A stretch of DNA of 64,000 nt, taken from the NCBI GenBank assembly GCA_026770705.1, contig JANJGN010000034.1, forward strand, positions 3,348,001 to 3,412,000, given 5' to 3'. This DNA comes from Isurus oxyrinchus (taxonomy: Eukaryota). Position numbers: made by a program. Of the stretch, positions 6,001 through 52,400 are shown piece by piece (positions within the stretch are counted from its first letter, which is position 1; every line of letters begins with the position of its first letter).

Positions 6001-9000
6001 GTGGCCATATTACCTGGGGCCAGGGAAAGGAATTGATGGAGTAGGTGGCGATGATTTTATTTACCACTCATTGATTGGGATGATATTAGAGTGAAGTGCA
6101 CCGTGGTGAAAAAGTTCCGAAATATGTCCACGAGAATGTCCTTGAACACTATCATATTAGTACTACAATTCCACTGGCATTGCTTTATCTGGTGCTTGGC
6201 AATGAGGTCAGCCACGTGCAACAATTTCTTGCAAATGGAGAGGCACAAGAAATAACCGAAGGTGGAACTTATTTTAGTTGCAGAACGACTATTTTCATTG
6301 GGCTCAGTGCTGACACAGGCATGTTAAAAAGTATCCTAACAGGAAAAGGAGTAACGGAACCATGGATGACCCAAAAGGAGCATATGGTTTAAACATCTGC
6401 CTTATACGAACGGTTACGAATGAGAAAGTTAAGGAAAATAAAATAAGACTTGCTTGAATGAAACAGGCATAGGTAATAAAATAAAACAAAATGAGGGCTT
6501 ATAATACATACTAGTTGAATTCTTTAAGTGAGAACAAGATCCAACAATTTACAATAAGAGCTTAAAGTACAGGGCAAAAAAATTCTGACAGACCAAGAAT
6601 ATGATAATATAATGACAGCCAGGATAATAGGCAGCAATGAAATCCTCTGTGAATATTCACATAACAAAGGTGTCACAGCTCGTGGAATGTCGCAAATGAG
6701 GGATATGGAATGTGACATATGTTGAGAGTGGTATGTGACGTTAGAATACTTCAGGAGAGCTTTTCATCCGTGAATACTAAATAGGAGAATGCTCACAATT
6801 AATCTGTAGAATAATAAACAAGATGGTTCGGGTGTCAGCTAATAGCTAGGATGGAAATATAGGGCTGGCTGTGCTTAGATTGGAAATATTGCCTGTGCCT
6901 TGTAGTTAGCATCTTATATATCAAAGAAAGGCACAGTGGGGATAGCAAAAGTACTTGCAAAAATTTTCAAAATTGCTATAGATACGGGGGACAGTAGTTA
7001 ACAGAGAAAATGGATTTAGGACTTTGTAAATATAATTATTCTGTGCAGAAACAGATTAAACTGCTAAACCACTATATCAACTATCTTCAAGCCACAACTA
7101 AATATTTGTATCCAGGTCTGGTTGCTAAACATTAGGAAGGATATGACGTCATTGAAAGGACGCAGAGGAGATTTAGCAGAATCGTTTCAGGAATGAAGGC
7201 TTTTAGCTACACGATATTGGAGAGATGCTCAATTCGTTCTCCCTGGACGTAAATGCATTGATTGGACATTTTAAGGAATTGCCTAGGATTGTGGTAGATT
7301 ATGTAACGTGGTATGAAAAACTGTTGGTTTTCGGTGTTTGCCCAAATACTGGGAGGCACAAAATTAATTGTTTCACATGACATGTGGTGGGAGGGCGGAG
7401 AGGGTCTGTTTTGTTACGCAGTGAGTGTGAATGACCAGGAGACCGATTTTGCAAGAGTAATGGAAACATAGACGATAAATGACAGCAAAGATAAATTGGA
7501 TGTCCAGTTGTGGAAAAAAACTTGTGATAGGGTGACGGAGACAGAATTGAGAAATCAGCATATATGATGGCCTATGGAACACAAACATGCATTCAATGCG
7601 TCTGCCTACATCCTTCTATGCCTCAAGGACTCTGACCCTACTTGTGGTAGGGTGACGGAGACAGCATTGAGAAATCAGCATACCTGATGTCCTATGGAAC
7701 ACAATCATACATTCAATGGGTCTGACTACCTCCTTCTAAACCTCAAGGACTCTGACATTAAATTCAAACACAGTACTGTTTTACCTATCTCTTTTGCAAG
7801 TAGTGATTTCGCTGAAAAGAAATAACAGAATTAGCAGAACAGTCCTCGATGTGGCCATTCTCCTGAATATAAAAGCAAGTCGAGCATTTTAGTATGTGAT
7901 AGAACCAAAAGGCGCAGGCAATTATCTGTGCTGAAAGTGAATCTGCTTCCACCTTGCCTCTCCTGAAACCAGTGGATTAATTAATGCTGCGATGTTAGAG
8001 GATAATAGCTGTGAAATTTATTGGGCTGTCACAGAACACTGAGTAGCATGGACAGCATAGTAAAATCGATAGGACTTATTGACTAGTCCACGTTGATATT
8101 GCTCACGTGGAATTAAAGCATGCATTATTTTTATTGTTGCAGGAAGCATTGCCTCTGTATAACACGTTTGGCAAGTGTATTTTTTAAAAGAATCAGAAGC
8201 ATAACAAGGCATCTCGCAGCTGATATTGAACCAAACTGCTCTCTGTCAGGTAATGGAAACTGTGATGTGGTTATCTTATTTACACAGATGCCCATTCAGT
8301 TGAATGAATTGGTGTACAGTAAACACGTAACTAATCAATGACATTGAAGTGTTCTCACATACAGCAAGCAACTAAGTCAAAGACAATACCAACATTCTTG
8401 ATTATTTTTCATTTCCTACTGTCGAAATAGAGTGCTATCATCGATGAATTTGGAAGCAAAGAGAAAGAAAAAAAGGTCGAAATTTAGAAAAAAAATGATT
8501 CTGTGTTGTTCAGAATACTTACAATCATTGAATGAATAGAGAATTGTTTTCTAAGACCAGCGAGATCTTTGAACACAAGAACATAAGGCATTGAAGCAGG
8601 ACGAGACCTGTCGTCCAATCGAGCCTACACTTCCGTGGTTAATGTGATGCCTGGTATGACTGTGGCCGGAACTCCACTTTGCATAAAGATTGGCTGCGTT
8701 ATATGTCGAGACATGGTTTCAAACAGTCTTAAATATTTAATAAATGAGCCTCCTTTTTTTGCTGTGGTAGAGAATTCGTATGACTGACTGCTCTTTGAGA
8801 GAAGAAAATTATCCTAATCTCTGGGTTAAAGAAGATTTGCCTTAATTTCAAACTGTGCCACTTATTTCCAATATTCTCCCATGAGGATAAACTTATTCTC
8901 TGTAGCCACCCCGTGAAAGACAGATAGGCAGTCGGATAGACATTCAGACAGGCAGACATATTGATGGGTATTTATATATTGAGGTAGTTCGTTAGACATA

Positions 9001-49400: not shown

Positions 49401-52400
49401 TTCCAGTTCAGCTGGGAGCTGGAAAGACTCCAAAAAGGTACAGCAATAACTAGAGGAGGTGTGTCAAAAATTAACCGCATGTTTGTGTGGGAAAGAAGTA
49501 CTCGCTCCTTAAATTATTGTATGGGACATGAAACATAGAGCTTAGAGAGAGCGATGAGAAAAAAATGTCATGGTTTTATAGATAACATAGGGAACCTACT
49601 GTTTTTACCCTGAAAGCAGATAACGTCAAAAGGAGAGAGAAGAGAGTTATTCTAACTTGTAAAATGTTTGTGAGAGGATTATTTAATTAAAGTGGCTTCT
49701 AGTGGAGGGCCTGTAGGTGTTTGTGTATGTATGCGGGGTGGAGGGCTGGTCCGGGGGGGTGGGTAGCTGGGGGCAGCTTGTTTTACTGGGAGCATACGGC
49801 AAGAGGGTGGGGAGTATCCGTAGGGTGCGGTGGCCTCTTGCGTGGGTTACAAGTTGAGGTATAGAAAAAAAGAATATCCCAGGGAGATATGGAGCTAAAA
49901 TTTTTAAGTAACAACTTGTGATGCAGGAGTCAATAGTTGACCTGGTGCTTGCTGCGGATTCAGCCGTGGATCACAAATTCAAATTGGCAATAGACTAGGA
50001 AATAAATTAGAATTTCAAGAAGTGTGCTCATTTGAATAGTTCTGTCCAGGAGCCTGCACTGGCATGTGGACTGAGTAACCCTCATGTGTGCTGTAACATT
50101 CTATGATGTATTTATGGGCAGCTACAGATGAAGTTTTCGGGCATAAATTCTGACTGTTTGCCAATATTCGAACTCGTCCAAGCTTTTGAACTACACCAGT
50201 GGCATCTTCCGTCGACCATCTTGTATTTCACTTGTGTTAGATGTAAATATTTGAAGTTGAATTTTGGTTTAGGCTGACAAGTGTATTTTGGTGCTAAGTC
50301 ATCAATATTTCCTTACCCTGAGCCCGGTTCTCTACTCCATATGCCAGTGGAATGGATTAAGTAGGAGTATTTCACTTCCCACACCTTTATTCCGTTTTTG
50401 AGAGGAACAAGAGAAGTGTTAACTGTTTATTGAAATTGAGGTTAACCATGGACTAGCTGGCACTGAAGTGAATGTTAAATGTCTTGCTATCAGCTATATT
50501 GAATAGGATACGATTCAAAAAGTAAGACAAGATATGATAGGGATTCAAGCATAAGTAGAAAACATACGTTCAATTATAAACATATTTGTCCCTTAAAGGC
50601 AATGATTGGTGCTGCCTGTACTGCTGCCTGATTGGCCAGAGGAGCACAATAATGAGACTGTTGTCCTATCAATATTGCACTAGGTGAGGTCAAATGTTCG
50701 GCCCACCGCATTAAGTTTGAACATTCCTATTCATCGACACGACCCTTTTTCCAAAGAGCATTATTCCTTAGTATGGTTAATTTTGTTGACCATCAAAGCT
50801 GCAATATAGACATTGAACGAGTGGTACATTATGGTATAAGTGCTTTTTATTGATTTTAATGGCAGAATGCGTAGAGTTCTTTTTCCATACAATGAGGACC
50901 TTACAATCAGGAAAAAGAGGTGTAACAGTCAAAAACATTGAATTCATAAATAACAACACATAACGCTCAAATGACAACATTTGTCCTATAAGAAAAGGGC
51001 AATAGTTAACAGATTGGCATCTCCGATAAGTTACTTCAGTTATACAGGAAGAACAGAGAACCTGAGCCAGAAGAAATAATTAGATTAAACGTCCTCCCTT
51101 GATGCTATATCACCTGATAATTCTAATGCTCTAATTTCTCCTCAAGGTTAATTGCAGAATAACTTAAATACATCAATGGCAATTCGATATTTCAGAAGAA
51201 TTTTACCTATCTGCCTTTGAGCCAGCCTTTCATCTGTGTGAACAGCAACAAATGGAAAACATTGAAACCAGAGACACTATATTCGAAAACACAGGGAATG
51301 ACAGCAGACTAAAGGCAACAAGAGCTATATAGCCTGCTCAACTAATCAAATCAAACAAAAAACTGATTATCAAAAATAATTTGAAACAGCCTCACATTCT
51401 TTTACTATGGTGCTTTAATGCCTACATCAGCCATAAAAAACATTTTGCAGGTGCGTGTACACGTGTACATGCAGCGCAGTGCATGGGGAGCTGATGCTGC
51501 ACTATATTTCAGCGGAGGTCCCAAGTGGCTGAAGACATGTTTGCATATCGTGGGACACTAAAATTGGTAATTTTCATGGGGTCAGTTTCGGAAAAAGGCA
51601 AAGACGTCGGAGTTGGGATGGATGCAGTGTCCAATGAAAAAATGCTGGGCTTGGATTTAGCACGGGTGACTATCAGAAACAACTGCTCATTCGCCCCTGC
51701 ACAACACCAAATTCTATTCCCCATCGAGCAACATTATTAACTTCTCAGTCCGTTCAGTGACTGGAAACCAGACTTAACTTGGTTATCTGTTATTCCACAA
51801 TATATTGAGATGAAATGGTTCCTCTGATGCACACATAATTTTTACGCCTAATATCAGAGCAATTATTATCAATAACTATGACTTATAATGAAAAAAAAAA
51901 TAAATGCCCTCATGATTCGGAAATTCCATTGAGTTGGACTTATCAATGCCATGGCGTTTGGCTGGCCAGTGTCTCTCCAATTCTGATGCATTTCTAATAA
52001 CCCGTCGATAATTTTGTGCTTTTGCCAGGACTAGATGCGAATCAGCAAGTTGCAAATCTCATTTCACCAGTTAGCTGAAGTACAACTTTAACAAACAGCA
52101 TTAGCAACAAGCGATAGACAGAGCTATGTGATTCCACAACCAACAAATCGGACCTAAGCTCTTTTGTCATGCCACATCAAGTCGTTAATGGTGGTGGACA
52201 ATTAAACAAATTAGTGAAGGAGAAGGCTCCATAAATATTCCCATTCTCAATTATTGGGCAAGACCATAACATTAGTGCAAAAATGAGGCTGAAGCAGTTG
52301 CTAAAATTTTCAGCCAGAAGTCACGAGTGGATCCTCTGGAGGTCCCTCGCATTACAGATGCCAAACTTCAGCCAATTCTATTCAATCACTGGGATATCAA

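What the first reader, a model, noticed from the sequence alone, without database searches (positions are those of the whole stretch)
7785..51233. The array is built from a repeated two-exon module (A + B), and 27+36 nt equals exactly three heptads
Seen: a 27-nt A exon (four end in ATAG|gtaa: ..QRQI, ..AKEI, ..EKTI, ..AKEI) is followed by a B exon starting E-[LVI]-[EK]-[ERK]-L (EVERL, ELEKL, ELKRL, EIEEL, ELEEL). Exons 41717 and 7785 are 20/27 identical; 45337 and 10771 are 15/27 identical. Two consecutive modules are 27+36 nt = 21 aa. Inference: the array grew by old tandem duplication of exon pairs, with only the exons staying recognisable, which implies selection. It predicts another B exon downstream of 7785, which I could not find in the window.
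[Added by the scan's program, not by the reader: the finding's places include an assembly gap (unread letters, written N; its length is only estimated) at 9088 to 9217. Whether the letters on both sides are continuous or in frame is not known: test that first.]
Basis: partly seen in the sequence, partly recalled or inferred. Interest (0 to 1): 0.65.

Follow-up and report, generated by a model that had tools for sequence, protein, structure and literature searches.

The report
Nine tiny exons, five-exon repeat
A run of nine very short exons on the minus strand encodes a helix-prone stretch of an unidentified protein and seems to have grown by copying a block of five exons, an ordinary way for repetitive genes to grow.

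Summary
The exons are real features at the stated coordinates, on the minus strand. There are nine mini-exons of 27, 33 or 36 nt. All have AG...GT borders, all have the same phase (1-1), and all nine are open in one offset only. All 4 ATAGGTAA sites on that strand have an AG exactly 27 nt upstream. The quoted identities, 20/27 and 15/27, are correct.

The N gap at 9088-9217 lies inside an intron, next to an (ATAG)n microsatellite, and cuts no exon.

The two-exon reading holds only in part. The order is A B C A B A B C A. Exons two apart are no more alike than in a random order. Exons five apart are the most alike: mean identity 0.59, reached by 94 of 100,000 order permutations. Exons 1-4 match exons 6-9 in order, which points to duplication of a five-exon block. 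Only one pair (41717/7785) is clearly homologous; three more pairs are moderately supported.

"Three heptads" fits the two central 27+36 modules only.

The predicted B exon below 7785 was not found in the window. I do not take the contig for human.

The parts
51207..51233 (-). Exon 1, type A, 27 nt, phase 1-1, cag|...|gtaaaa; peptide ERLAQRQI
48891..48923 (-). Exon 2, type B, 33 nt (not 36), phase 1-1, cag|...|gtgagt; junction E then VERLKMTFNS
45337..45363 (-). Exon 3, type C (starts like B but 27 nt), phase 1-1, cag|...|gtaagt; an in-phase alternative acceptor 15 nt upstream would make it 42 nt
41717..41743 (-). Exon 4, type A, 27 nt; clear homologue of exon 9 (20/27 nt, 6/8 full codons same residue)
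35326..35361 (-). Exon 5, type B, 36 nt, cag|...|gtaaga; junction E then LKRLKDILHGM
33081..33107 (-). Exon 6, type A, 27 nt, cag|...|gtaatt
24508..24543 (-). Exon 7, type B, 36 nt, cag|...|gtgaga; the only exon whose last base is A rather than G
22269..22295 (-). Possible extra 27-nt phase 1-1 exon (tag|...|gtaaag, 70% purine). It has no counterpart in the first block. Uncertain.
10771..10797 (-). Exon 8, type C, 27 nt, weak acceptor aag|, donor gtaaac. An in-frame stop two codons upstream fixes its start.
7785..7811 (-). Exon 9, type A, 27 nt, cag|...|gtaaaa; homologue of exon 4
9088..9217 (.). Assembly gap (130 N) inside the intron between exons 8 and 9, next to an (ATAG)n microsatellite at 9004-9080. 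Left unread.
33108..51233 (-). Inferred block I (exons 1-5: A B C A B; 150 exonic nt)
   Evidence: (lag-5 similarity)
7785..33107 (-). Inferred block II (exons 6-9: A B C A). Its fifth exon is not seen in the window.

Best explanation
The region 7785-51233 is part of one minus-strand gene of a non-mammalian animal genome. In this stretch the gene consists of at least nine mini-exons (27, 33, 27, 27, 36, 27, 36, 27, 27 nt) separated by introns of 2.2-13.7 kb. Every exon starts with two bases that complete a codon and ends with one base that starts the next (phase 1-1). Any exon can therefore be added, lost or skipped without breaking the frame. Together they encode about 88 residues rich in E, L, K and I, with no proline. 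This fits an alpha-helical, probably coiled-coil-like, rod or linker. The array most likely grew by unequal crossing-over that copied a five-exon block (A B C A B), so that exons 1-4 correspond in order to exons 6-9. The A/B alternation inside a block may reflect an older exon-pair duplication that can no longer be shown. Selection kept the exons, while the introns diverged and filled with repeats.

Shown: the exon borders, the phase, the open frame, the order, the similarity statistics and the composition. Inferred: that the exons are spliced in this order, the helical or coiled-coil structure, the block duplication and the selection.
For: - 9 of 9 exons are open in one offset only, against 1 and 3 of 9 in the others.
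- 4 of 4 minus-strand ATAGGTAA sites have AG at -27.
- Coil-like phase-1 candidates are in excess: 15, against 3-8 in the other strand/offset combinations, 2-9 in reversed controls, and mean 4.8 (maximum 10) in 40 shuffles.
- 41717/7785: 20/27, reached by 0 of 20,000 shuffles. They are reciprocal best matches in the whole window at the nucleotide level and in six-frame BLOSUM scoring (30 against next best 23). The pair is the only HSP with E<0.01 between the two 5-kb segments.
- Other lag-5 pairs: 45337/10771 P 0.001-0.009; 48891/24508 P 0.0003-0.0016.
- Lag-5 mean identity is 0.59, reached by 94 of 100,000 order permutations, and by 64 of 2,880 class-preserving ones.
- Flanks are 20-38% identical against 52-74% in the exons.
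- Composition is E15 L15 K14 I9 of 88, with 0 Pro and 2 Gly. The four central exons share one heptad register.
Against: - No transcript, orthologue or protein match was available, and the gene is unnamed.
- About five coil-like pseudo-exons are expected by chance in such a scan, so a single weak exon could be false. 10771 has an aag acceptor.
- Only one exon pair stands out at the protein level.
- 51207/33081 is not significant once the shared ATAG is trimmed (10/23, P 0.05).
- After allowing for the choice of lag, the block signal is P about 0.03 (2,840 of 100,000).
- 33081 is slightly closer to 41717 and 7785 (15/27) than to its lag-5 partner 51207 (14/27).
- The fifth exon of block II was not found.
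- Global heptad periodicity is weak.
- The scaffold join at the gap is unverified.
Confidence: 0.6

Rival explanations
1. One reading: the array grew only by tandem duplication of a two-exon A+B module (27+36 nt = three heptads). The 27-nt E-L-E-x-L exons are shortened B exons.
For: - Two adjacent 27+36 modules exist and share one heptad register.
- Within-class identity exceeds cross-class identity: A-A mean 14.8/27, B/C-B/C mean 12.3/27, cross-class mean 8.45/27.
- 41717/33081 reach 15/27 (P 0.004-0.04).
Against: - Lag-2 similarity is at the level of random exon order (0.36; 71,487 of 100,000 permutations reach it).
- The order has two B-like exons in a row, twice.
- One module is 27+33.
- The best partner of 7 of the 8 exons that have a lag-5 partner lies five exons away, not two.
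- The classes were recognised by the very motifs that make them alike, and the ATAG ending is largely forced by the splice donor.
Confidence: 0.2
2. No duplication. The exons are real, but they resemble each other only because each must encode a short amphipathic helix and keep splice-site consensus at both ends (convergence).
For: - Most pairs are not above composition-matched shuffles. 5 of 16 within-class pairs have P>0.2 on whole-exon nucleotide shuffles.
- At the protein level only one pair stands out from six-frame background.
- The terminal ATA-G|GT and the junction Glu follow from donor and acceptor consensus (inference).
Against: - 41717/7785 share 20/27 nt, including 4 identical and 2 synonymous of 8 codons. 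They are reciprocal best hits in the window.
- The similar pairs are collinear, which convergence does not predict.
Confidence: 0.12
3. Chance pseudo-exons in non-coding DNA; no gene here.
For: - No protein match, no Pfam hit and no larger exon in the flanks.
- A background of about five coil-like candidates per strand and offset is expected.
Against: - With AG present at about 6% of positions, four of four ATAGGTAA sites having AG at -27 is roughly a 1e-5 event.
- Nine of nine exons are open in one offset.
- All lie on one strand, in one phase, and are purine-rich relative to their flanks in 8 of 9.
Confidence: 0.05

Closest known systems
Genes assembled from runs of same-phase symmetric exons by internal tandem duplication (described for the human genome in PMC3632108; passages read)
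   Same: Consecutive exons of one symmetric phase class (1-1). Lengths are multiples of three. Exons inside one gene resemble each other while the introns do not.
   Different: These exons are unusually short (27-36 nt, nine in a row). The similar exons are five apart, not adjacent. The encoded stretch looks helical rather than disordered (inference from composition).
Super-repeat architectures of giant muscle proteins (nebulin super-repeats, titin PEVK exon arrays). Seen only as search listings and abstracts; the details are recalled.
   Same: A higher-order repeat unit made of several short modules or exons, copied as a block.
   Different: No proline-rich or actin-binding module composition here. 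Exons are a third of the size. Membership was not tested by any sequence match.
Micro-exon genes (MEGs) of schistosomes: tandem symmetric exons of 6-36 nt, multiples of three, giving variants by alternative splicing (PMC4699917, one Discussion passage read)
   Same: Tandem symmetric exons of at most 36 nt, so any exon can be skipped in frame.
   Different: MEGs are described in a flatworm, and their products are linked in that passage to escape from host defences. Here the peptides are E/K/L-rich and helix-prone, the introns are kilobases long and hold LINE fragments, and CpG is depleted (o/e 0.49). No signal-peptide exon was seen.
Collagen-type exon arrays with lengths in multiples of 9 nt (recalled, no call)
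   Same: 8 of 9 exons are 27 or 36 nt.
   Different: No Gly-X-Y: 2 Gly in 88 residues. One exon is 33 nt.
Mutually exclusive tandem duplicated exons (PMC9741552, abstract seen)
   Same: Homologous exons of equal length (27 nt) within one gene.
   Different: The homologous exons are not neighbours; four other exons lie between them. Substitution splicing is therefore not the likely use.

Membership tests
Internally duplicated symmetric-exon array | All exons in the same symmetric phase and a multiple of 3 nt long | tested here: met
   9 of 9 exons are phase 1-1 with lengths 27/33/36 nt. 9 of 9 are open in offset 2, against 1 and 3 of 9 in the others.
Internally duplicated symmetric-exon array | Exon-exon similarity above composition-matched chance, with introns not alike | tested here: met
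   41717/7785: 0 of 20,000 shuffles reach 20/27. Three more pairs have P 0.0003-0.009, and the remaining within-class pairs are marginal or not significant. Flanks are 20-38% identical. No other HSP with E<0.01.
Internally duplicated symmetric-exon array | Exons are spliced together in genomic order in a transcript | not testable with these tools
   No transcript or eukaryotic genome collection was available.
Two-exon (A+B) repeat unit, as proposed | Similarity peaks at a lag of two exons | tested here: not met
   Lag-2 mean identity is 0.36, reached by 71,487 of 100,000 order permutations. Lag 5 gives 0.59, reached by 94 of 100,000.
Coiled coil (heptad repeat) | Hydrophobic residues at a/d positions with a 3.5-residue period over the segment | tested here: inconclusive
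   The four central exons share a register. Over 88 residues, power at 3.5-3.67 is reached by 345-433 of 5,000 shuffles, and the maximum over 3.4-3.67 by 1,179 of 5,000. The register shifts at the 33-nt exon and at the C exons.
Coiled coil (heptad repeat) | Helix-compatible composition (few Pro/Gly, many E/K/L) | tested here: met
   E15, L15, K14, I9, Pro 0 and Gly 2 of 88 residues.
Schistosome-type micro-exon gene | Tandem symmetric exons of 6-36 nt | tested here: met
   9 of 9 exons are 27-36 nt and symmetric. The definition comes from the PMC4699917 passage.
Schistosome-type micro-exon gene | Flatworm origin and flanking conventional exons encoding a secreted product | not tested
   No flanking conventional exon was found in the window. 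The organism was not determined.
Collagen-type exon array | Gly-X-Y triplets | tested here: not met
   2 Gly in 88 residues.

The most novel reading that the evidence does not exclude
The array belongs to a so far undescribed kind of animal rod protein built entirely from exons of at most 36 nt, organised in a five-exon super-repeat. Its length could be tuned in steps of 9-12 residues by in-frame skipping of single exons or by block copy number. That would be a helical counterpart of collagen or PEVK exon arrays.
Probability: 0.1. Interest if true: 0.6.

Novelty: new member of a known kind. Interest (0 to 1): 0.3.

Why it matters
If transcripts confirm it, this is a clean small example of how a repetitive helical protein segment grows. 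Phase-symmetric mini-exons are copied as a multi-exon block, and only the 27-36 coding bases are kept by selection across tens of kilobases of diverged intron. Runs of nine exons this short are also easily missed by gene predictors, so the locus is a useful test case for annotation. It does not open a new question, because growth by internal duplication of symmetric exons is established.

Tried and rejected
- Exon-by-exon protein search.
- A 43-aa stop-free stretch of the window around exon 24508 (exon plus read-through) found 16 word-sharing candidates, none with E <= 10.
- Exons are also below the 20-30 aa minima stated for the Pfam, PDB, Atlas and structure tools, so none of those was run on them.
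Ten separate open stretches from the flanks gave nothing above the curated cut-offs.
- Looking for larger exons of the same gene: none convincing.
- Looking for the predicted B exon in 1-7784, by motif, by splice and phase scan and by BLOSUM scan: none.
- A 36-nt phase 1-1 candidate at 53297-53332, about 2 kb upstream of exon 1, was rejected. It has a poor donor, a non-helical peptide, and 7-11 matches to the B/C exons.
- Other scan candidates were rejected for weak sites or because they lie in repeats: 43067-43102, 33421-33453, 14294-14335 and 1221-1265.
- Rfam and tRNA scans: 0 hits.
- Literature searches for a coiled-coil gene with 27-nt exon arrays found nothing. Searches returned 0 papers. 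One search returned 1 and one search listed 25 of 68, none describing such a gene. So "not in print" rests on these five searches only.
- A UGC motif before the acceptor was seen in 2 of 9 exons by eye in the output and was not pursued.
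Full report
**Setting**

The window is 38-44% G+C, with CpG observed/expected 0.49 and a single N run at 9088-9217. Rfam at gathering thresholds gives 0 matches and ARAGORN gives 0 tRNAs.

Both ends of the window carry copies of one repeat: 1-1992 against 60621-62562, 76.6% identity over 2,025 columns. 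Its minus-strand open stretches match Pfam RVT_1 (E 2.2e-14) and Exo_endo_phos (E 4e-8). There is also a sub-threshold GDSL-lipase-like match (19.6 bits against a cut-off of 32.9). 3 of the 6 stretches tested had no match. This is a LINE-type retroelement.

I do not take the contig for human, for three reasons:
- the moderate CpG depletion;
- the absence of SRP-derived repeats among the Rfam hits;
- long open LINE pieces of this kind.

That these features are unlike the human genome is my own knowledge, not a tool result. The organism was not determined.

**The gap, tested first**

- The 130 N at 9088-9217 lie between exon 10771-10797 and exon 7785-7811, 1,553 and 1,277 nt from the nearest exon ends.
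- The gap is therefore inside an intron of the model.
- Its left flank is an (ATAG)n array at 9004-9080, a usual place for an assembly break.
- No exon or reading frame runs across it. The phase relation of the two neighbouring exons is set by their own splice sites.
- Three things cannot be known: the true intron length (2,959 nt as written), whether the join is correct, and whether a mini-exon is hidden in the unread stretch.
- In favour of the join, exon 7785 is on the same strand, in the same phase and in the same place in the series as its homologue in the first block.

**The observation**

All the exons are on the minus strand. In transcript order they are:

| No. | Coordinates | Type | Length (nt) |
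|---|---|---|---|
| 1 | 51207-51233 | A | 27 |
| 2 | 48891-48923 | B | 33 |
| 3 | 45337-45363 | C | 27 |
| 4 | 41717-41743 | A | 27 |
| 5 | 35326-35361 | B | 36 |
| 6 | 33081-33107 | A | 27 |
| 7 | 24508-24543 | B | 36 |
| 8 | 10771-10797 | C | 27 |
| 9 | 7785-7811 | A | 27 |

- Eight exons have a cag acceptor and one (10771) has aag. All have GT donors.
- Introns run from 2,218 to 13,710 nt. The exons make up 267 nt of a 43,449-nt span.
- Each exon begins with two bases that complete a codon and ends with one base that starts the next.

I call the two 27-nt exons that start like B exons "C", because each follows a B exon rather than an A exon. The order is A B C A B A B C A, not a plain A/B alternation. 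The first module is 27+33, not 27+36. The "E" of ELEEL at 10771 comes from reading through the acceptor. Spliced from exon 24508, whose last base is A, the junction codon gives K.

**Are the exons more than chance?**

- All 4 minus-strand occurrences of ATAGGTAA have an AG exactly 27 nt upstream and an open frame. On the plus strand this holds for 0 of 1. AG is present at about 6% of positions.
- 9 of 9 exons are open in offset 2, but only 1 and 3 of 9 in the other offsets.
- A splice-and-composition scan that uses no exon-exon similarity finds 15 coil-like phase-1 candidates of 18-63 nt on this strand and offset. The other five strand/offset combinations give 3-8, six reversed-sequence controls give 2-9, and 40 local shuffles give mean 4.8 and maximum 10.
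- About five false candidates are therefore expected. The four other loci in the list lie in repeats or have poor sites.
- Exons are purine-rich relative to their upstream 100 nt in 9 of 9, and relative to both flanks in 8 of 9.

**Exon-exon similarity**

- Among 87,990 pairs of 27-nt AG...GT pseudo-exons from both strands, mean identity is 7.05 (sd 2.33). 135 pairs reach 15 and 8 reach 20.
- Exons 41717 and 7785 are reciprocal best matches among about 128,000 window positions: 20/27, next best 17-18.
- No nucleotide, trimmed or codon-order shuffle out of 20,000 reaches their identity.
- In six-frame BLOSUM scans they score 30 of a self-score of 35, against a next best of 23.
- In a blastn of the two 5-kb segments around them, their 42-nt alignment (78.6%, E 5.6e-4) is the only HSP with E<0.01.
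- Their 8 full codons are 4 identical, 2 synonymous and 2 non-synonymous.
- Moderately supported pairs are 45337/10771 (15/27, P 0.001-0.009), 48891/24508 (18/33, P 0.0003-0.0016) and 48891/35326 (16/33, P 0.001-0.008).
- The remaining 12 of 16 within-class pairs are marginal or not significant. For example, 51207/41717 falls to 8/23 (P 0.29) once the shared ATAG is trimmed, and 35326/24508 is 14/36 (P 0.22).
- At the protein level no pair other than 41717/7785 rises above six-frame background.
- MAFFT alignments with 50-nt flanks show invariant columns clustered in the exons and splice sites.
- In the four lag-5 pairs the exons are 52-74% identical and the flanks 20-38%.

**The repeat unit**

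Mean fractional identity by distance in the exon series is:

| Lag | 1 | 2 | 3 | 4 | 5 | 6 | 7 |
|---|---|---|---|---|---|---|---|
| Mean identity | 0.36 | 0.36 | 0.43 | 0.36 | 0.59 | 0.32 | 0.19 |

- The lag-2 value, which a two-exon module predicts to be high, is reached by 71,487 of 100,000 random exon orders.
- The lag-5 value is reached by 94 of 100,000.
- Allowing for the choice of lag, 2,840 of 100,000 reach it. With permutations that keep the A and B/C positions, 64 of 2,880 do.
- Exons 1, 2, 3 and 4 pair with exons 6, 7, 8 and 9.
- For 7 of these 8 exons the lag-5 partner is the best match among the other eight. The exception is 33081, which scores 15/27 with 41717 and 7785 and 14/27 with 51207.

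I read this as duplication of a five-exon block A B C A B (150 exonic nt in block I). The model predicts that the exon after 7785 is a 36-nt B exon like 35326-35361.

None was found in 1-7784 by motif, by phase and splice scan or by BLOSUM scan. In block I the corresponding intron is 6,355 nt, and coordinates 1-1992 are the LINE copy, so the exon may lie beyond the window.

Upstream of 51233 I found no further member. A 36-nt candidate at 53297-53332 has a poor donor and 7-11 matches to the B/C exons.

A possible extra 27-nt exon at 22269-22295 (gtaaag donor, phase 1-1) has no counterpart in block I. If real, it would restore a G before exon 10771 and so give the junction Glu.

**Heptads**

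27+36 nt = 21 codons is simple arithmetic. It applies to two modules, exons 4+5 and 6+7. In these, the B exons place L/I/M at the same two registers.

Across all nine exons the register shifts at the 11-residue exon 2 and at the 9-residue C exons. Over 88 residues the hydrophobic power at periods 3.5-3.67 is reached by 345-433 of 5,000 shuffles, and the best of 3.4-3.67 by 1,179 of 5,000.

The composition (E15, L15, K14, I9, no Pro, 2 Gly of 88) fits a long helix. A continuous canonical coiled coil is not shown.

The shared ending ATA-G|GTAA is weaker evidence of descent than it looks. Of the three Ile codons, only ATA puts the consensus A at donor position -2. The junction Glu follows from G at donor -1 plus a purine-rich exon start (my inference).

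**What the gene is**

This stays open.
- Each exon has 8-11 full codons. The search for homologous proteins requires 40 aa, and the other protein tools state minima of 20-30 aa.
- A 43-aa stop-free stretch of the window around exon 24508 gave 16 word-sharing candidates, none with E <= 10.
- No larger exon and no Pfam domain above cut-off was found in ten open stretches of the flanks.
- The spliced model was examined exon by exon only.
No orthologous locus could therefore be examined.

**Mechanism and rivals**

Best reading (0.6): real exons of one gene encoding a helical rod or linker. The array was enlarged by unequal crossing-over that copied a five-exon block, with purifying selection on the exons. 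The phase 1-1 symmetry would also allow in-frame skipping.

Rivals:
- growth only by A+B pairs (0.2; possible as an older layer, but lag 2 shows no signal);
- convergence without duplication (0.12; contradicted by the 41717/7785 pair and by the collinearity);
- chance pseudo-exons (0.05).

**Comparison with what is known**

- Runs of same-phase symmetric exons that arise by internal tandem duplication are described for human genes (PMC3632108; abstract and passages of several sections read).
- Tandem symmetric exons of 6-36 nt define the schistosome micro-exon genes (PMC4699917; one Discussion passage read).
- Titin PEVK and nebulin super-repeat papers were seen only as listings and abstracts. 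What I say of them beyond that is recalled.
- Collagen 9n-nt exon arrays are recalled, with no call behind them.
- Five searches for a coiled-coil gene with arrays of 27-nt exons found no such description. Searches returned 0 papers, one search returned 1, and one search listed 25 of 68.
- Supplements were closed and none was needed for a claim made here.

**Verdict**

This is a real and tidy exon array. The unit of duplication is better described as five exons than two. The heptad point holds only locally, and the gene is unnamed. It is an ordinary kind of gene growth in an unusually fine-grained form.

Noticed in passing
window 1-1992 and 60621-64000 (minus-strand coding sense): Two copies of a LINE-type retroelement, 76.6% identical over 2,025 columns. 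In the copy at the high end, Pfam finds a reverse-transcriptase match (about 61546-61917), an endonuclease match (about 62904-63341) and a sub-threshold GDSL-esterase-like match near 63750-63990. The coding region reads as at least three separate open stretches rather than one. The breaks were not counted further.
   Followed up: partly
window 7520-7756: Tandem duplication of a 120-nt unit (2.0 copies, 89% matches), starting 29 nt downstream of exon 7785-7811, inside the next intron. No coding or splice feature was seen in it.
   Followed up: no
window 9375-10445 and 13731-14337: Copies of one interspersed repeat (about 72% identity, one direct and one inverted) in the introns on either side of exon 10771. 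A further related piece lies at 47079-47549. They account for part of the larger introns of block II.
   Followed up: no
window 31870-32492: Low-complexity ATC/ATCATC-type tract that gives long Asp/Asn- or Ile-rich pseudo-ORFs in several frames. It lies in the intron between exons 33081 and 24543.
   Followed up: no
window 37412-37502: Adjacent (CA)24 and (GA)20 microsatellites, in the intron between exons 41717 and 35361.
   Followed up: no
window 39397-40565, plus strand: Open stretches of 151, 112 and 91 aa that look to the eye like reverse-transcriptase remnants of another retroelement, antisense to the gene. Pfam gave no match at E <= 0.01 for the two tested.
   Followed up: partly
window 45364-45378: An in-phase alternative acceptor 15 nt upstream of exon 45337-45363 would give a 42-nt version of that exon. 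It scores higher on my crude acceptor measure (5.1 against 3.0). Homology with the 27-nt exon 10771 favours the short form.
   Followed up: partly
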